In this document: piece after piece, positions 36,001 to 42,000 of the stretch
Position numbering within the stretch: the stretch's first letter is position 1
Layout of the letters: every line of letters starts with the position of its first letter
Assembly (NCBI GenBank): GCA_049513715.1
Contig: JBEKVV010000003.1
Location: 320,001-384,000 of the forward strand
DNA: 64,000 nt
Direction of reading: 5' to 3'
Source: Candidatus Bathyarchaeia archaeon
GTDB taxonomy: Archaea > Thermoproteota > Bathyarchaeia > 40CM-2-53-6
Made by a program: the position numbers

Positions 36001-39000
36001 GTTTCATTCCAAGAAGCAGCAACCATGGAGCCCGCCGCTGTGGCCCTCCATTCAATGGACTATGCAAAACCTGTGGCCGGCGAAACTGTGGTAATACTAG
36101 GGCAGGGACCAATTGGGCTTCTGCACACGCAGGTGGCCAGAATTTCGGGATTGACTGTAACAGCGGTAGACATCCTAGACCATCGCTTGGAGCTCGCGAA
36201 GAAGCTTGGGGCGGATTATGCGATAAACCCTTCCAAAGAAGACCTAGTGGGGAAAGTCAGATCCTTCACTAATAGAGGAGCCGACATCATTATCGATACA
36301 AGCGGATCGGTCAAGACGACTGAAATCACACCGTTCCTAGCCAGTCCTGCAGGCAGAATCATTGTCGTGGGCTCGTCCAAGGAGTTGATGACCCACGGTC
36401 CACCAGCAGAGATGATTTTGACTAAAGAACTGTCCATATACGGGGTCGCAGGAGCGCCTCTAAAGTATCCAAGGGCACTCGCGTTAGTTGGGAATAAGAA
36501 GCTTGACGTTAAGACGCTGATTACTCATAGAATCAAGCTTTCGATGATAAATGAGGCTTTCAGACTGTTCGACGATCCCAGAATGATTAAGACTTTAGTT
36601 GAGTCCTCTGGCTGAGCTGTCGGTCAGGCTGGGTGGTCGGACTAGGCCCTCGTATTCTGCGAAAGGCTTCCTGCATCAGAAAGGCGTGCCGCTGCCGACA
36701 TAGCACTTGATTTGATTTTGCTCGAAAATTCTGGCCACATGCATCATTTTGTCGTCCAAGGGAGCGGTGACGCTCCTGTACTTGTATTCCCAACCAAGCT
36801 GCTCGTACTTGGTTGTCCCTAACCTGTGAAAAGGAAGTAGGTTCACCTCCTTTTTCCTAATCTTCTTCATGAAAGTAGCCGTAGCTTTCATGTTCTCATC
36901 AGAGTCATTGAAACCAGGCACTACTGGAATACGGACGACAATTCTCGAATCGTTCCTTTGTGCGATTATGCCCTCTATGTTCTTGAGAATTAGCTCGTTG
37001 GTAACGCCTGTTCCTTCTCTATGCTTTTCTGGATCCATGTGTTTGATGTCAACGAAAACCCAATCAGCATAATTCAACGCTCTCTCCAAAATCTTTGGAG
37101 AAACATGCGCGCATGTCTCTATGGCTGTGTGAACGTAGGAATTGTAGAGCCTCTCAAGCATGGCAGTAGTGAATTCAGGTTGGGCTAGAGGTTCGCCGCC
37201 ACCGAACGTGACGCCGCCTCCTTGTCCCCAATAGGCCCTGTCTCTGGTCACGATCTCCATGGCTTCCTCTACGGTGACATCGCGGCCGACGACCCGTAGT
37301 GCTCCGTTGTAACAGCTGTTCACGCAGCTGAATTGGTGGCATTTTTCGCATTTTGACCAATCGAGGGTGATGGAATCTGCATTATTCGCCTTGCTGATAG
37401 CCCCGACGGGGCATGCTCCCACGCAGCTGTAGGTTTCTGCCTTGCATTTCCTTTGACTGTACATCAACTGAGGTTTGAACGATTGCCCTTCAGGGTTACA
37501 GCACCAGCTGCACTTGAGCGGGCACCCCTTCATGAAAAAGAGTGTTCTGCATCCGGGTCCGTCATGAACAGAGAAGCCCTGAACATCAAAAACAAGACCC
37601 CTCAGACTATGTGCCATGTTCGCTACGGACCCAGACCGTTCTTTGTAATCGACTTCACTCCCGGTCGTGTCGGGTTTTGGGCTCAGACTTCCACTCGAAT
37701 ATTTCGCATGTTCGTGTTCTGAGTTCGGGGAATGTCACGGTTATTCCTTTGCAGAGGCCCAGGGCATCAGTTTTGCTCGTGTAATTTGCGCAGAACTTAC
37801 ATTTCTTGGTTGGGACGCATTCAGTGCATGCATTTTCGTCTGTCAGAACGGAGCGCTTGTTGAGGTGACAGATTCCCTTGAAGACGTCTACTGGGGTGAA
37901 ATAGTCGCAGTCGCCACATTTCGAAACTTGGAGTTGTGTCAGCATTTACATCAGCTCTTCGTATTCGGTTCGTGCGATGATCTCGTCCTGAATGGGTTTA
38001 GGAAGCTCTACCCAGTAATGGGTGAACCCGGCTACTCTGACGAGGAGGTCTCTGTAGTTTTCAGGATGAGCCTGGGCCTCCCTGAGCATCCTGGTGTCGA
38101 CCACATTGAACTGAATATGAAAGCCTCCCTTCCTCATGTATCCTCTAATCAGTTCGAGGAGTTTTCTTGCTCCTTCCCTTCCTCGAATTGCTGATGGATG
38201 TACCTTGAGATTCATCTGTGTGCACTGAGATTCAGAATGGTCGAAGCATGTGGCAGAGTTGAACAGGGCGTAGGGTCCATTGAGATCTGTACCGGGATAA
38301 GCGGATAAGGAAGCGTCAGCGTATGTGGTGCCGTGCAATCGTCCGTCAGGTGTGGCAATCGCTGCGGCTCCCATCGGACCATGAGTTGACACGGAAAGTT
38401 GAAGCGCATACAGTGGTTTGCCGTACAGGGATTTGTACTCGTGCGGGACCGAGCAGTAGAATTGCTCGAACGTCTTCAGGATTTCATCTGCGAAGGCATC
38501 ATCGTTTCCATATTTTGGTGCATTCAAACACCGGTAATGGGTCTCATTCCATTCTTGTGAAATTCTCTCTTGTTCCAGAAGTGAGTACGAGCCTACTTCT
38601 TCCGCGGTCTTGTACCCGAAATTACTGCGCAGTGCTTCTTTCAAATGATCGAGTGTCATCGATTTGTCTGTGTAAACGTTCTTTTTCAGCGAAGCCAGCG
38701 AGTTAACCAAGTTCATTCCGCCACAGATGTTGACGCTGAAGGTTCTGTTGTACCTGGACCCCAGCATCCCGATATGCATGCCTTTGTCGAGGCAATCGGG
38801 TTTCAATATTGAGTTGACTAATGGTGGGGTTAGTTTTCTCCAGATATCATGCTGGACATTGTTGCAGCGTATGAGGACGTCCATGATTCTTCTGAAATAG
38901 GCCTTGTATGCATCCCAGACTTCCTCGTAAGTCTCCAACTTGTAGCCGTGTGGCGGCAACACACGTCTACCTGTCCTCTGGTCAACTCCATCAAAGAGCA

Positions 39001-42000
39001 CTAGCTCAAGGATCTTTGGAAGGTTTAGGAAGTGGACTCCCACATCGGTTGCCGGTGCTGCCCCGCCTCTGGGAATAGTGTACTTCTTCCCGTTCAGTTC
39101 TAAGTCGACCCAAGTGCAGGCAGATGTCTGCAGGCAACCGCCTATAGCGACAGCCCTCGCTTCCTCCAGAGTCATTCCTTCTGGTCCGAAGTTCTTAAGG
39201 AGGAATTCTGTGGCAATTCGGTTGTTGACCCACGCAGGATAACCTGTCCCCGTCTTATTGCACTCAATGGCTTTCATGAGGAACTCTTCAGGCAATACCT
39301 CATCGTAGAGCAAGGTGAAGGTAGGTTGCGGGGTTTCGCAGGTGATACCAGATTCTATCATTAGCATTTCAAGTTCGTTTGCGGCGCTTTGACCGTCTTT
39401 TGTTAAGCCTCCCAAACTGACGTTGTTGAAGGTGCTTCCTGACTGTATTCCCTCAATGACGGATTTGGGTCCGAACAGGTCGATTTCGGTGAATTTCATT
39501 CTCATGCATTCTAGAAGCTCCATGGTTCGGTCTTGATCAATTCTCCCCGCGTCGACATCTTCCTTCCACCAAGGGTAGAGGACCTGCCCCAGCCTGCCCG
39601 GCGCTAAGCCAGAAAAATTGTCTTCGTTCAATACAGCGATGTGGAAAGTCCAGCACAACTGCAATGCCTCACGGAACGTCCGGGGCGGCTTTGATGATAC
39701 CCATTTCAGGATATCACGAATCTCTTCGTACTCTCTTCTCTGCTCCGGGTCCTTCTCTGTCCTCGCTAGTCTCTGCGCCTCGTCTGCAAAGTTGAGGATC
39801 CATTTCTTGATACCTTCGAGGATGATTGTTGCGGCTTTGTAGAAGTATAGGCGGTCCATTCCGTTTATTCCGTCATTCCCCGGATCGCCGCCGACTTCTG
39901 CCATCTTCTTCCTGCAAATCTCGATGATGCCGTCGATTCCGAATTGCAGGGGGTAGTAGTAGCTGATCACTTCCCTTCCTTGTGGTAATGTGTATCCTGA
40001 ATCGTACATGCAGACTAAGCTGCGCATTATCGCTTCTTTTTCGTCGTACCCCTGAACCAGCTGCTCATACTGATGCGAAACATCTTCGACGGACTTGTCA
40101 TCCCACATCGTGCTGATTTCTTTGAGGATTGGGAATTCCTCTTTTCTTAAACCGAATTTTCCTGCAATCGGAATTACGTTTCCAGTTGCGATGGTTACGT
40201 TGCCCCCGCCCTTCGCCACCTTTACTACTTCTTCAGCCGCCAGACCTCTCTTCTTAGCTTCCTCGTACCTCTTCTCAGTCTCGATAAGATAGGTTTGCGA
40301 CAGCCATGGCATGGGGAAGGACCCTCTCAAGTAAACAGTCCTCTCCATCACGAGCAGCTCTCCCTGGAAGATGCTTGGCGTTAGGTGGGAGTATGCGTAA
40401 CTGAGAGCCTTTGCCCTCCTGACTAGTGGAATCTCACCTTCAAGTTCATTCCATCTCCTCGTATACCAGTAAGGGAACTCAACGCTCGCTGAAGACTTTG
40501 TCTGGAGATAGCGGTCTCTGATGTTTCTGGCACGAAGGGTCGGTTGCTTCTTGGTTTCGCGCGACCCGATTTGCTCGGAAGCCTGTTTTCCGTATTGAAA
40601 GGATAGTTTGAGGCCTCTGCTCACTTTACTCTCCGCAAGTCTTTCATGCGTTTCCTTTTGCTTTGTTTCCTCTAACATTCCAATCACGTTCTAATTCAGC
40701 AATATTCGGTCTTTCCTTCATTTAGGGCGGCCAGCACTTTGGCCGGTGATATTGGCAAGGACCTGAATCTGATGCCTATTGCGTCTTTTATCGCATTAGC
40801 TATGACTGGTGCCACCGGGTGCAATGATGCCTCGCTTATGCTCTTTCCTCCCACTCCAGATGGCTCGTTGGTTTCAACCAGTATTACTTGGGCTTCTGGC
40901 ATGTCTGAGACTGTAGGAATCTTGTAGTCCGTTAGGTTTGAATTGAGAACCCGTCCTCGTTCATCGAACTTCACTTCTTCCATCAAGGTCTGGCCGATTC
41001 CCTGCCCAATCGCGCCATACACCTGTCCTTTCGCTCCAGCCGGGTAGATTGCCTTCCCCAGATCTTGGGCCGCGACGTATCGGGTTACGAACACTTGGCC
41101 GGTGAGCATGTCTACATCTACTTCTGCGAAATGTGCTCCGAATGGTGGTGGATTGTCGGGCGGTTCAGCTGCCAGCGAGACGACCAAGCTCTTGTTTAGA
41201 TGGAATCTGGCAAACAGTCCAAGCTCTGAAAGAGGAAGGTGAACAGTGGGATCTTGTGTCGAGACCAGATGTTTGCCTTGAATCTTCAACGACTCGGGGT
41301 TCTTGTTCAGCATCTCTCCAGCTGCCTTAAGGACCTGTTCTCTCAGTTGTTCGCAGGCTGACTTTATGATACTACCAACAACATACGTCCCTCGACTGGC
41401 ATGGATCGCGCCTTCGAAAAGGGTTGTATCTGTATTGCCAGTCTCAAGGTCGATCATGTCGGCGTCGGTTCCGAGTGTTTCTTGCGCAATATTGCGATAT
41501 ACAGTGTGTTGGCCGCATCCCATGTCTATCGCGGCAGTTAGCACGATGAACTTTCCATCCTCATTGAACTTCACGGTCACGCCAGAATGCTCAATTATCT
41601 TTTCCACCGTTGACTTGGTTCCAGTTCCCGATCCTCTTATGGTCTGAAAAGCGACGCCCCTACCTCTTCTCCTGTTTGGATCAAGTGGCTGCTGAATCGG
41701 TTTACCCCATCCGAATGCTTCGCCTGCTCTTCTCGCCGATTCTTCCAGCCCACAAGAGTTAATCGTGTAGCCACTTCGGGGGTTCACGTCGCCAAGTTTG
41801 AATGAATTCTTGAGCCTGAATTCGATTTGGTCAAAACCCATTTTGTCTGCGATATCGGTCATCTGGCTTTCTATAGCGAAGGCACATTGTGCGCCACCGT
41901 ATCCTCTCATCGCTCCCGGAGAGTACGTGTTGGTGTAAGTTGCATAGGCTTCGAAAAGGCGGTGGGGAGCATTGTAAGCCGCATCAAAGTACATACCTCC

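What a model noticed while it worked through the whole genome (the two positions that open the first line are those of the whole stretch)
36676..40678. Complete clostridial-type 4-hydroxyphenylacetate decarboxylase (HpdBCA) and hydroxyproline dehydratase in an archaeon
g01988-g01987-g01986 encode the glycyl-radical subunit (910 aa), the small gamma subunit (96 aa) and the activase of a 4-hydroxyphenylacetate-decarboxylase-type enzyme. The two glutamates that the solved enzyme uses (Glu505 beside the thiyl Cys503, and Glu637 that deprotonates the phenol) are Gln and Asn here, while Ser344, Cys503, His536 and the glycyl site are kept. I read it as a bacterial-derived three-subunit glycyl-radical decarboxylase with a new, non-phenolic substrate. 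That substrate is probably a (hetero)aryl- or ureido-acetate made in the surrounding island of xanthine-dehydrogenase-family, hydantoinase and amidohydrolase genes. A hydroxyproline dehydratase with its activase (g026 [...]
Evidence so far: Swiss-Prot: g01988 is 53.4% identical over 892 aa to C. difficile HpdB, g01987 37.7% to HpdC, g01986 46.9% to HpdA, and g02602 59.5% to C. difficile HypD. NCBIfam NF033715, NF033716 and NF043068 hit at full length. In the alignment to the solved C. scatologenes enzyme 2y8n_A (E 4e-292, residues 37-896), GGC503-L-E505 reads GGCLQ and nfE637scg reads svNicgg, while S344, H536 and RVAG are kept. Roles of Glu637 and Glu505: PMC9248008, passages read; indoleacetate decarboxylase also keeps the Cys-x-Glu. 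Among the 120 closest database proteins (825 at E<=1e-40, call 120), 114 have Glu at 505, and 91 of the 94 where my pattern found the second site have Glu there. Only 6 (the query and 5 kin at 62 [...]
(Added by a program. Inside this text positions count along the whole contig: contig position 320,001 is position 1 of the stretch shown here. "Call 12" and the like, gene names such as g00115 and contig names such as C1 are that model's own, and its searches are not shown. The text may have been shortened before it was handed on; [...] marks where a part breaks off. The agent that wrote the report below was given it as the finding of a first reader that could run no searches.)

Follow-up and report, generated by a model that had tools for sequence, protein, structure and literature searches.

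The report
Archaeal HPAD-like radical decarboxylase cassette
A peat-soil archaeon carries an intact three-gene copy of the oxygen-sensitive radical enzyme that bacteria use to make p-cresol, but its catalytic pocket is rebuilt and it is always encoded with a molybdenum hydroxylase and two ring-opening hydrolases, so it probably removes CO2 from a different, nitrogen-containing ring acid that nobody has yet identified.

Summary
Window 36676-40687 (minus strand) encodes an activase, a Cys-rich small subunit and a 910/913-aa glycyl-radical large subunit. The large subunit scores above NCBI's 4-hydroxyphenylacetate decarboxylase (HPAD) cut-off. Both catalytic glutamates are replaced (GGCLQ; SVNICGG).

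New here:
- Q+N co-occur perfectly: 6 distinct proteins against 114 E+E among the 120 closest, plus 71 of 71 E+E in a pocket-focused search. They form one well-supported clade nested inside HPAD.
- A third listed active-site residue changes too (G/S532 to Asp). A Gly becomes Glu in the neighbouring loop, so two carboxylates are lost and two gained.
- Toluene-forming phenylacetate decarboxylase already shows Cys-x-Gln without Glu637.
- The three genes belong to an eight-gene cassette: three xanthine-dehydrogenase-family (XDH-family) subunits, a hydantoinase-like amidohydrolase and a deaminase-like amidohydrolase. It is orthologous in a second genus.

Best reading (0.6): a decarboxylase for a polar N-heterocyclic or lactam "aryl"-acetate. 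The substrate is unproven. This scan flagged the same clade before on another genome (e1-1250055). It is a new variant of a known kind.

The parts
36676..37617 (-). Glycyl-radical activating enzyme (radical SAM, 313 aa) with CxxxCxxC and a Cys-rich ferredoxin-like insert
   Evidence: NF033717 scores 408.6 bits (cut-off 420). TIGR02494 scores 344.1 (cut-off 174). PFL-AE structures match at E 5.5e-29. It is 65% identical to the G036 orthologue.
37655..37945 (-). Small gamma subunit (96 aa), Cys at 10, 13, 26, 40, 43, 49, 52, 65 and 80
   Evidence: NF033716 scores 63.3 bits (cut-off 50). It aligns to the HPAD small subunit 2y8n_B at E 0.002 over residues 12-69, with several Cys aligned. The G036 orthologue is 52% identical and hits Pfam 4HPAD_g_N and HPIP_like. 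It starts directly after the large-subunit stop.
37946..40687 (-). Glycyl-radical large subunit. Likely start is the ATG at 40678 (910 aa). Key residues: Cys518, Gln520, Asp548, His552, Asn653, Gly887 (RVAGF)
   Evidence: NF033715 scores 1365.2 bits (cut-off 1150). 2y8n_A matches at E 4.1e-292.
40696..42981 (-). XDH-family molybdopterin-binding subunit (761 aa), same operon, ending 17 nt before the ATG of the large subunit
   Evidence: XdhA model NF043082 scores 591 bits (cut-off 780). The best solved relative is 4-hydroxybenzoyl-CoA reductase alpha, 1rm6, at E 1.9e-97. It has its own clade: 9 clusters at 67-74% identity, then a drop to 44%. It is 74% identical to the G036 orthologue.
42982..43100 (.). 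Divergent intergenic region between the two operons of the cassette
   Evidence: Coordinates are. The alignment with the G036 counterpart shows no clearly conserved motif outside the coding ends.
43101..43979 (+). XDH-family FAD-binding subunit (292 aa)
   Evidence: Pfam FAD_binding_5 and CO_deh_flav_C. NF043083 scores 239.7 bits (cut-off 310). It is 54% identical to the G036 orthologue.
43976..44458 (+). XDH-family [2Fe-2S] subunit (160 aa)
   Evidence: Pfam Fer2_2 and Fer2. It is 69% identical to the G036 orthologue.
44516..45976 (+). Cyclic amidohydrolase of the hydantoinase / dihydropyrimidinase / allantoinase type (486 aa); metal-ligand motifs kept
   Evidence: TIGR02033 scores 261 bits (cut-off 393). 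L-hydantoinase 1gkr matches at E 3.9e-57. D-I-H-T-H, the Lys, two His and the Asp line up with D-hydantoinase 1k1d. It is 71% identical to the G036 orthologue.
45826..47379 (+). TRZ/ATZ / SsnA / guanine-deaminase-type amidohydrolase. The ORF runs from 45826, but homology begins near residue 50, so the true start is probably near 45970
   Evidence: Best NCBIfam hits are all below cut-off (for example NF005557, 253.7 against 522). Atrazine chlorohydrolase 4v1x matches at E 7.8e-39. It is 69% identical to the 471-aa G036 orthologue.
20036..27079 (.). Second module that lies near the cassette in both genomes: PTPS/QueD-like protein, ferredoxin, AFOR, DUF1989 and two TRZ/ATZ-type amidohydrolases. 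A functional link is possible but not shown
   Evidence: Pfam and NCBIfam. Orthologues at 61-69% identity lie about 2 kb from the cassette in G036.

Best explanation
This is a functional three-component glycyl-radical decarboxylase of the HPAD lineage that has changed substrate.

Shown: the genes are intact, and the radical-handling residues and the partner proteins are kept.

Inferred from the family:
- The radical-SAM activase puts a radical on Gly887.
- The radical passes to Cys518.
- The thiyl radical attacks a carboxymethyl-substituted ring compound.
- CO2 leaves, and the ring-CH2 radical takes a hydrogen back from Cys518 to give the methyl compound.

Glu505 and Glu637 are replaced by Gln and Asn, while Asp548 and Glu412 are new. 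The phenol-deprotonating Kolbe route of HPAD therefore cannot run as written. The likely alternatives are hydrogen abstraction at the methylene, as proposed for PhdB, or electron abstraction assisted by a new Asp548/His552 pair.

The substrate is inferred to be a polar N-heterocyclic or lactam 'aryl'-acetate. The enzyme is one step of a pathway encoded by the same eight-gene cassette. In that pathway an XDH-family molybdenum hydroxylase oxidises the ring next to nitrogen, a deaminase-type amidohydrolase acts on the ring or its substituents, and a hydantoinase-type amidohydrolase opens it. The order of steps and the identity of the compound are not known.
For: 1. The system is intact: three tightly packed ORFs with family scores at or near cut-offs.

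2. Q520 and N653 co-occur in all 6 distinct clade members and in none of 114 other close relatives. None of 71 further proteins from a search restricted to residues 395-560 carries them. Of 19 cluster members checked, 18 are Q+N and 1 is Q with the second site not matched by the pattern.

3. The clade is monophyletic (support 1.0) and nested inside E/E HPADs.

4. Zargar et al. quote nine HPAD active-site residues from Martins et al. (PMC4979209, passages). Six are kept here: R238, S359, G360, F420, C518 and H552. Three are changed: E505Q, G/S532D and E637N.

5. There are 31 clade-specific positions. Nine lie within 5 residues of those nine sites, against 2.5 expected (p about 4e-4). They include the loop VVGGVLSGNTF becoming VIEGIQSGSTF.

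6. The changed residues are invariant across a clade that has diverged to 63% identity. This argues for selection, not decay.

7. Precedent: PhdB has Cys-x-Gln, and its Q484E mutant is dead (PMC7079210). PAD also lacks Glu637 (PMC13232127).

8. The eight-gene cassette is orthologous at 52-77% identity in G036, a different genus with different flanks.

9. The XDH Mo subunit has its own small clade. These cover 4 of the 5 non-self Q/N clusters, including the most divergent one.

10. The hydantoinase-like partner keeps its metal ligands.
Against: - There are no biochemical or expression data. No RNA run holding the stretch was listed.
- The cassette was read directly in only two genomes of one archaeal family. 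The other co-occurrences rest on matching contig lengths, not on sequence seen.
- One Q/N cluster (P0009, on a 6-kb contig) gave no match.
- Pocket assignments come from sequence alignment and a published residue list, not from a structure of this protein. It is unknown whether Glu412 faces the pocket.
- The enrichment test is partly circular, because two of the nine sites defined the clade.
- The protein still scores above NCBI's HPAD equivalog cut-off.
- PAD, which also lacks both glutamates, is reported to accept both phenylacetate and 4-HPA (PMC13232127, passage). Activity on ordinary arylacetates therefore cannot be excluded.
- Across the superfamily, a non-Glu residue after the Cys is common: 66 of 126 full-length representatives. 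The motif alone is not exceptional.
Confidence: 0.6

Rival explanations
1. It is a convergent phenylacetate-type (simple, non-phenolic arylacetate) decarboxylase. On this reading an HPAD-lineage enzyme has arrived at the PhdB solution of Cys-x-Gln with no Glu637. It makes toluene or a similar methylarene from amino-acid-derived arylacetates. The XDH cassette would serve another purpose.
For: PhdB has Cys-x-Gln and needs it, since Q484E, Q484A and Q484L mutants are inactive or nearly so (PMC7079210). PAD lacks Glu637 (PMC13232127). AFOR genes lie near the cassette in both genomes. AFORs can make arylacetates from arylacetaldehydes; that role is recalled, not tested.
Against: The clade-specific changes add polar and charged residues (Asp548, Glu412, Gln415, Tyr228, Asn653) rather than a hydrophobic pocket. 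The tight, conserved operon link to a dedicated XDH clade and two amidohydrolases is unexplained. I held no PhdB sequence, so no direct comparison was made.
Confidence: 0.15
2. It is still a 4-hydroxyphenylacetate decarboxylase. It would use relocated acid/base groups (Asp548/His552, Glu412) in place of Glu637 and Glu505.
For: It scores above the HPAD equivalog cut-off and is 53% identical to the solved enzyme, with 6 of 9 listed active-site residues kept. Two carboxylates are lost and two gained. The 2026 review states that the roles of Glu505 and Glu637 have not been tested by mutagenesis (PMC13450708, section 5.4 read).
Against: 114 of 114 other close relatives keep both glutamates. A coordinated change of at least 31 positions, concentrated near the active site, points to a new specificity. 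The XDH and amidohydrolase partners have no role in p-cresol formation.
Confidence: 0.1
3. It catalyses a different radical reaction, not a decarboxylation. Examples are a C-N or C-O cleavage or a ring contraction on an intermediate of the XDH/amidohydrolase pathway.
For: Both residues that define the HPAD mechanism are gone. GRE families have changed reaction type repeatedly (review PMC13450708, passages and section 5.4). A new invariant Cys822 and His890 appear near the glycyl loop.
Against: The residues that hold the carboxylate end of the substrate near Cys503 (Ser344, Gly345, Arg223) are all kept, as is Phe405. The scaffold, the small subunit and both HPAD/IAD-type extensions are retained.
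Confidence: 0.1
4. It is an inactive relic or a regulatory/structural remnant of a transferred HPAD operon.
For: Loss of both proposed catalytic glutamates. The distribution is rare and patchy: 2 of 105 genomes of the order.
Against: All three ORFs are intact in two genera. Gly, Cys, the Fe-S ligands and the radical-SAM motif are kept. The replaced residues are invariant over a clade that has diverged to 63% identity.
Confidence: 0.04

Closest known systems
4-Hydroxyphenylacetate decarboxylase CsdBC/HpdBC with activase CsdA/HpdA (Clostridium scatologenes, PDB 2Y8N/2YAJ; NCBIfam NF033715/16/17)
   Same: Three-gene order (large, small, activase). E 4.1e-292 to 2y8n_A. Scores above the equivalog cut-off. 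Gly and Cys radical sites, Ser344, Gly345, Arg223, Phe405 and His536 are kept. Cys-rich small subunit.
   Different: Glu505 to Gln, Glu637 to Asn, residue 532 to Asp, and a new Glu412. The loop at 396-405 is rewritten. It sits in an operon with an XDH-family enzyme and two amidohydrolases. The host is archaeal.
Phenylacetate decarboxylase PhdB/PAD (toluene-forming GRE)
   Same: Cys-x-Gln in the Cys loop and no Glu637 equivalent. It is a decarboxylase whose substrate has no phenol to deprotonate (PMC7079210, PMC13232127, passages).
   Different: PhdB has no small subunit and lacks the HPAD/IAD extensions (PMC13232127, passage). The window's protein belongs to the HPAD lineage, so the resemblance would be convergent. 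No PhdB sequence was compared here.
Indoleacetate decarboxylase IAD (NF033718)
   Same: It belongs to the same HPAD/IAD structural subclass. Its substrate is an N-heterocyclic arylacetate, and a His contacts the ring N-H.
   Different: The score is 742.9 bits against a cut-off of 1100. IAD keeps Cys-x-Glu and has no small subunit.
Arylacetate decarboxylase AAD (PDB 7E7L)
   Same: A GRE that decarboxylates 4-HPA and tolerates 4-aminophenylacetate (review PMC13450708, section 5.4).
   Different: Only a distant relative (E 5.7e-81). It has no small subunit and an unrelated active site.
Molybdenum-hydroxylase plus hydrolase plus decarboxylase routes for N-heterocycles, e.g. the pterin/lumazine cluster of Cupriavidus sp. 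LA-1 (PMC12391406, abstract only)
   Same: The same logic of a deaminase, an XDH-family dehydrogenase, a ring-rearranging or ring-opening hydrolase and a decarboxylase in one cluster.
   Different: There the decarboxylase is a prFMN (UbiD) enzyme and the hydrolase belongs to the amidase-signature family. [quoted passage not shown] No orthology was tested.

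Membership tests
HPAD (4-hydroxyphenylacetate decarboxylase, NF033715) | Whole-protein score above the curated equivalog cut-off | tested here: met
   1365.2 bits against 1150, profile 3-901 of 901
HPAD | Glycyl radical site (RVxG) and thiyl Cys503 | tested here: met
   RVAGF with Gly887, and Cys518. Both are invariant in 121 of 121 aligned rows
HPAD | Glu505 (Cys-x-Glu), the proposed proton donor to the Cys thiolate | tested here: not met
   Gln520 in all 6 distinct clade members; Glu in 114 of 114 others
HPAD | Glu637, which deprotonates the phenol of 4-HPA | tested here: not met
   Asn653 in all 6 distinct clade members; Glu in 114 of 114 others
HPAD | Other listed active-site residues: Arg223, Ser344, Gly345, Phe405, Gly532, His536 | tested here: inconclusive
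   Five are kept. Position 532 is Asp here, Ser in 112 of 114 relatives and Gly in the solved enzyme
HPAD | Small gamma subunit with two Fe-S cluster sites, encoded between the large subunit and the activase | tested here: met
   NF033716 scores 63.3 against 50. The protein has 9 Cys, several of which align to 2y8n_B. The gene order is conserved. Cluster binding itself was not tested.
HPAD | Dedicated activase with an extra ferredoxin-like domain | tested here: inconclusive
   NF033717 scores 408.6, just under 420. TIGR02494 is well above its cut-off. The Cys-rich insert at 45-105 is present
HPAD | Decarboxylates 4-hydroxyphenylacetate to p-cresol | not testable with these tools
   Needs an anaerobic enzyme assay
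Phenylacetate decarboxylase PhdB/PAD | Cys-x-Gln and absence of the Glu637 equivalent | tested here: met
   GGCLQ and Asn653. The PhdB features are taken from PMC7079210 and PMC13232127
Phenylacetate decarboxylase PhdB/PAD | Single-subunit GRE without the HPAD/IAD extensions; sequence membership | tested here: not met
   A small subunit is present and the protein falls inside the HPAD family tree. I had no PhdB sequence to align.
Indoleacetate decarboxylase (NF033718) | Score above the equivalog cut-off | tested here: not met
   742.9 bits against 1100
Xanthine dehydrogenase XdhABC (NF043082/83/84) | Scores above the equivalog cut-offs for the three subunits | tested here: not met
   591 against 780, 239.7 against 310, and 163.3 against 217. 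The Pfam domains of the XDH family are all present
Dihydropyrimidinase / hydantoinase (TIGR02033) | Score above cut-off; binuclear-metal ligands | tested here: inconclusive
   261.3 bits against 393.25. HxH, Lys, His, His and Asp align with 1k1d

The most novel reading that the evidence does not exclude
The enzyme is the missing fourth member of the amino-acid-derived arylacetate decarboxylases. Phe, Tyr and Trp products already have enzymes (PhdB, HPAD and IAD). This one would act on histidine- or histamine-derived imidazole-4-acetate to give 4-methylimidazole.

The rest of the cassette would then mineralise that product without oxygen:
- The XDH-family enzyme hydroxylates the imidazole carbons, as XDH does at purine C8.
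- This yields a methyl-imidazolone or 5-methylhydantoin.
- The hydantoinase-like and deaminase-like amidohydrolases open the ring to an N-carbamoyl amino acid.

Asp548, His552, Asn653, Gln415 and Glu412 would bind the imidazole N-H groups. If true, it would be the first functionally assigned archaeal PFL-like GRE. It would also be a natural E505Q/E637N test case for the Kolbe-versus-HAT debate.

Other carboxymethyl N-heterocycles fit the same evidence about equally well. Examples are oxindole-3-acetate, uracil-5-acetate, 6-hydroxypyridin-3-ylacetate and a pterin acetate.
Probability: 0.12. Interest if true: 0.85.

Novelty: new variant of a known kind. Interest (0 to 1): 0.62.

Why it matters
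Only four glycyl-radical decarboxylases are known. According to a June 2026 review (PMC13450708), every PFL-like glycyl-radical enzyme with an assigned function is bacterial.

This clade offers three things:
- A likely fifth substrate class for radical decarboxylation.
- A natural double replacement of the two glutamates on which the disputed Kolbe-type mechanism rests.
- The first case I could find of a glycyl-radical enzyme wired into a molybdenum-hydroxylase and amidohydrolase pathway. That points to an unknown anaerobic route for breaking down nitrogen heterocycles in peat.

It also shows that public pipelines will label these proteins '4-hydroxyphenylacetate decarboxylase', although two defining residues are missing. 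Predictions of p-cresol production from metagenomes would then be inflated.

Tried and rejected
- Genome-collection scan with the large subunit. It returned only four distant (43-45%) actinobacterial loci and no Q/N relatives.
- Metagenome scan. It returned only the window's own contig and one 44% relative. The tool that fetches contigs by exact protein is closed.
- Relatives, order, class and phylum searches. Only G036 besides the own genome was found among those searched.
- Search restricted to residues 395-560. It found no further Q/N clusters.
- Search of 1.84 billion 50%-identity representatives. The whole HPAD family collapses into one representative, so it gave superfamily context only: 60 of 126 full-length representatives have Glu after the Cys and 7 have Gln.
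- Alignment of the divergent promoter regions of the window and G036. No conserved operator-like motif was seen.
- Sequencing runs. 24 peat or wetland DNA runs hold the stretch and may be its source.
- tRNA scan of the window. None found.
- Composition profile. The cassette shows no GC anomaly (about 0.50, like its surroundings), so there is no sign of recent transfer.
- Literature searches. No paper was found that links a glycyl-radical decarboxylase to an XDH/amidohydrolase cluster or describes a Bathyarchaeia GRE. Only listings and the passages named in the report were read. The supplements of those papers were not opened and might hold relevant alignments.
- Structure prediction, fold search and complex prediction were not run. 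The tools return no coordinates, so they could not show which residues line the pocket. The fold is not in doubt at 53% identity to a solved structure.
- Uric-acid reductive pathway (PMC12507026, passages). Its only 'glycyl radical' hit is a reference-list entry, so I dropped it as a model.

Full report
**What is there.**
On the minus strand lie three tightly packed ORFs:
- An activase at 36676-37617 (313 aa).
- A Cys-rich small subunit at 37655-37945 (96 aa).
- A large subunit at 37946-40687. It has 913 aa from a GTG. The database form P0005 uses the ATG at 40678 and has 910 aa.

NCBIfam places them in the 4-hydroxyphenylacetate decarboxylase (HPAD) system:
- NF033715 scores 1365.2 bits (cut-off 1150), full length.
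- NF033716 scores 63.3 (cut-off 50).
- NF033717 scores 408.6, just under 420. The general GRE-activase model scores 344.1 (cut-off 174).

The large subunit matches the solved C. scatologenes enzyme 2y8n_A at E 4.1e-292 over residues 53-910. In that alignment GGCLE reads GGCLQ and nfEscg reads svNicgg. Ser344, Cys503, His536 and the RVAG glycyl site are kept.

The hydroxyproline dehydratase in the title is real but lies on another contig (NF043068, 1342.1 bits against 1100).

The assembly is archaeal:
- It has a full-length archaeal SSU rRNA at 1459 bits.
- It has four TBP matches.
- A proteasome subunit and ComA lie in the window.

Earlier notes of this scan call the genome a peat Bathyarchaeia. 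I did not test that name beyond the domain. The stretch is held by 24 peat or wetland DNA runs, which may be its source.

**How unusual the two replacements are.**
I aligned the query with the 120 best of 1007 database hits.
- Position 505 is Glu in 114 rows and Gln in 7. Position 637 is Glu in 114 and Asn in 7. The same 7 rows carry both.
- Two of the 7 rows are the window's own protein. That leaves six distinct proteins: the query plus P0006, P0007, P0008, P0009 and P0030.
- They form one clade with support 1.0, nested inside E/E enzymes. The sister group includes a Thermanaeromonas protein.
- A second search scored only residues 395-560. It put the same six clusters on top (285-368 bits) and everything else at or below 254 bits. 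All 71 newly seen proteins are E/E.
- Of 19 further members of the Q/N clusters, 18 are Q+N. One is Q, with the second site not matched by my pattern.
- Within the clade, identity falls to 63%, yet the changed residues are invariant.

At superfamily level the picture is less special. Among 126 full-length representatives (clustered at 50% identity) of the best 150 hits, only 60 have Glu two residues after the Cys, and 7 have Gln. A non-Glu Cys loop is thus common among orphan GREs. What is unusual is finding it inside the three-subunit HPAD lineage.

**More than two residues changed.**
I compared the six Q/N proteins with the 114 E/E proteins. 31 positions are fixed differently.

Zargar et al. 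list the HPAD active-site residues of Martins et al. as Arg223, Ser344, Gly345, Phe405, Cys503, Glu505, Gly532, His536 and Glu637 (PMC4979209, passages).
- Six are kept here.
- Three are changed: Glu505 to Gln520, Glu637 to Asn653, and position 532 to Asp548. Position 532 is Gly in the solved enzyme and Ser in 112 of 114 relatives.

Other clade-specific changes:
- The loop before Phe405 changes from VVGGVLSGNTF to VIEGIQSGSTF, which adds Glu412 and Gln415.
- Phe214 becomes Tyr, Ile343 becomes Phe, and CQISVST becomes LQLSVST.
- SQNSQ becomes SQCTQ, and RVAGFTQ becomes RVAGFTH.

Nine of the 31 positions lie within five residues of the nine listed sites, against 2.5 expected (p about 4e-4). Two of those sites defined the clade, so the test is partly circular.

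Two carboxylates are lost (505, 637) and two gained (412, 548). The acid groups look relocated rather than deleted. Asp548 sits four residues before the retained His552. Whether Glu412 faces the pocket could not be tested without coordinates.

Phenylacetate decarboxylase PhdB has Cys-x-Gln in both known versions. Its Q484E, Q484A and Q484L mutants are inactive or nearly so (PMC7079210, passages). PAD also lacks the Glu637 equivalent and is said to act on phenylacetate and 4-HPA alike (PMC13232127, passages).

So 'no Glu505, no Glu637' is already the signature of a GRE decarboxylase whose substrate has no phenol to deprotonate. PhdB has no small subunit and lacks the HPAD/IAD extensions. The window's enzyme sits in the HPAD tree, so the resemblance would be convergent.

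The June 2026 review lists four GRE decarboxylases (HPAD, PAD, IAD, AAD). It states that all PFL-like GREs with assigned function are bacterial, and that the roles of Glu505 and Glu637 have not been tested by mutagenesis (PMC13450708, passages and section 5.4).

**The cassette.**
The XDH-family molybdopterin subunit (40696-42981) ends 17 nt before the large-subunit ATG, on the same strand.

Across a 119-nt divergent spacer lie four more genes:
- The FAD subunit (43101-43979).
- The [2Fe-2S] subunit (43976-44458).
- A hydantoinase / dihydropyrimidinase / allantoinase-type amidohydrolase (44516-45976) with its metal ligands intact.
- A TRZ/ATZ / SsnA / guanine-deaminase-type amidohydrolase (to 47379).

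None of the five partner genes reaches an equivalog cut-off, so their substrates are unassigned.

G036 is a genome of another genus in the same family. It carries the same eight genes in the same arrangement, at 52-77% identity, with different flanks: a PAS/GAF histidine kinase on one side and a TrmB regulator on the other.

The Mo subunit has its own small clade: nine clusters at 67-74% identity, then a drop to 44%. Members of those clusters and members of the Q/N enzyme clusters were recorded on contigs of identical length. The eight lengths are 142163, 82974, 24885, 36350, 6903, 50371, 98790 and 28503.
- The matches cover four of the five non-self Q/N clusters, including the most divergent one (P0030).
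- On the 6903-bp contig the XDH gene is a 319-aa fragment, as expected if it abuts the enzyme at a contig end.
- This evidence is indirect, because I could not read those contigs. Chance agreement of eight such numbers is nonetheless implausible.
- P0009, on a 6-kb contig, gave no match.

The enzyme is rare in the host lineage. It was found in 2 of 105 genomes of the order, 2 of 401 sampled from the class and 1 of 401 (the window's own genome) sampled from the phylum. This fits acquisition of the cassette as a unit. The GC content shows no anomaly.

**Wider surroundings.**
A second module lies 9.6 kb from the cassette here (20036-27079) and about 2 kb from it in G036. It comprises a PTPS/QueD-like protein, an AFOR, a DUF1989 protein and two TRZ/ATZ-type amidohydrolases.

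The rest of the window is rich in C-N hydrolases and nucleobase-type genes:
- At least seven TRZ/ATZ-type amidohydrolases.
- Two CN-hydrolases and an M20 deacylase.
- A uridine-phosphorylase-like protein.
- A PnrA-type ABC transporter.
- A UbiD decarboxylase and AllG.
- Class-III aminotransferases.

This supports 'nitrogen-heterocycle catabolism' as the theme, but it does not name a compound.

**Mechanism proposed.**
Shown: the components are intact and all radical-handling residues are retained.

Inferred from the family: activase, then Gly887 radical, then Cys518 thiyl, then attack on a carboxymethyl compound bound with its carboxylate at Ser359/Gly360/Cys518. CO2 is then lost and hydrogen returns from Cys518.

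Inferred from the replacements:
- The phenol-coupled Kolbe route cannot run as written.
- The likely alternatives are a PhdB-like hydrogen abstraction at the methylene, or electron abstraction helped by Asp548/His552.
- Asn653, Asp548, Gln415 and Tyr228 suit a ring that offers N-H and C=O groups.

Inferred from the cassette: the ring is a nitrogen heterocycle or lactam that the XDH-family enzyme hydroxylates and the two amidohydrolases deaminate and open.

Candidates that fit, from chemical reasoning and not from any call:
- Imidazole-4-acetate. It would complete the Phe/Tyr/Trp/His series and, after two hydroxylations of 4-methylimidazole, lead to a hydantoin for the hydantoinase-like enzyme.
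- Oxindole-3-acetate.
- Uracil-5-acetate.
- 6-Hydroxypyridin-3-ylacetate.
- A pterin acetate.

The Cupriavidus pterin/lumazine cluster shows the same logic of deaminase, Mo dehydrogenase, hydrolase and decarboxylase, with a UbiD decarboxylase in the last role (PMC12391406, abstract only). I recall, but did not check here, that anaerobic indoleacetate degradation in Aromatoleum/Azoarcus was proposed to use a molybdenum enzyme and a hydantoinase-like enzyme.

**Verdict.**

The same clade was flagged earlier in this scan on another genome (e1-1250055). My tests on this copy agree with that note. They add three points that its summary does not mention: the cassette, the contig co-occurrence and the PhdB parallel.

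I found no paper linking a GRE decarboxylase to an XDH/amidohydrolase cluster or describing a Bathyarchaeia GRE. I rate it a new variant of a known kind, of solid but not exceptional interest until an assay names the substrate.

Noticed in passing
window 20036-27079; L009/L010 (G036 C2, about 38.1-44.8 kb): A second conserved module lies close to the cassette in both genomes, at 61-69% identity. It holds a PTPS/QueD-like protein, a ferredoxin, a tungsten-type aldehyde:ferredoxin oxidoreductase, a DUF1989 protein and two TRZ/ATZ-type amidohydrolases. Its role and its link to the cassette are unknown.
   Followed up: partly
G000 C5:147605-149362 (L002 895-3267), with an activase at L002 12-905: A second glycyl-radical system is present in the genome. 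[quoted passage not shown]
   Followed up: partly
window 24324-27079, 29064-30422, 45826-47379, 48700-49950, 60040-61419, 63339-63992: The window has an unusual density of TRZ/ATZ / SsnA / guanine-deaminase-type amidohydrolase paralogues, at least seven in 64 kb. None reaches an NCBIfam equivalog cut-off.
   Followed up: no
window 55892-57199 and 61691-62947: A UbiD-family decarboxylase (TIGR00148, 273 bits against 245) and an AllG (oxamate carbamoyltransferase subunit) homologue sit in the same island. The UbiD enzyme recalls the xanthine-8-carboxylate decarboxylase of the Cupriavidus lumazine pathway. Orthology was not tested.
   Followed up: no
P0001 residues 822 and 890 (window about 38221 and 38017, minus strand): The Q/N clade has an invariant new Cys (SQNSQ to SQCTQ). 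It also has a His in place of Gln three residues after the radical glycine (RVAGFTQ to RVAGFTH). Both positions are invariant Asn and Gln in the 114 E/E relatives, and their role is unknown.
   Followed up: no
P0002 residues 10-13 (window 37907-37918, minus strand): The small subunit begins its first cluster motif with Cys10-x2-Cys13. The review says one HPAD gamma cluster has three Cys and one His. This clade may use four Cys instead. The alignment to 2y8n_B starts only at residue 12, so this is unresolved.
   Followed up: no
G000 C9:8588-10054; C1:83808-85980: A haem-copper oxidase subunit I and cytochrome bd subunits are present in the assembly. The bd genes share contig C1 with the 16S rRNA gene, while COX1 lies on a different contig (C9). 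Estimated contamination is 8.8%, so the COX1 contig's origin was not checked.
   Followed up: no
L010 26-1221 (G036): In G036, two tandem isochorismatase-family hydrolases and a TrmB regulator lie between the cassette and the second module. From recall, this family includes nicotinamidase, N-carbamoylsarcosine amidase and RutB. The two hydrolases have no counterpart in the window.
   Followed up: no
superfamily representatives P0362-P0511: Among 126 full-length GRE representatives nearest to this protein, 66 lack Glu two residues after the catalytic Cys (D 14, S 11, Q 7, G 6, H 6 and others). Five lack Gly at the radical position (T 4, A 1). This is a reminder of how many orphan GRE chemistries remain.
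   Followed up: no
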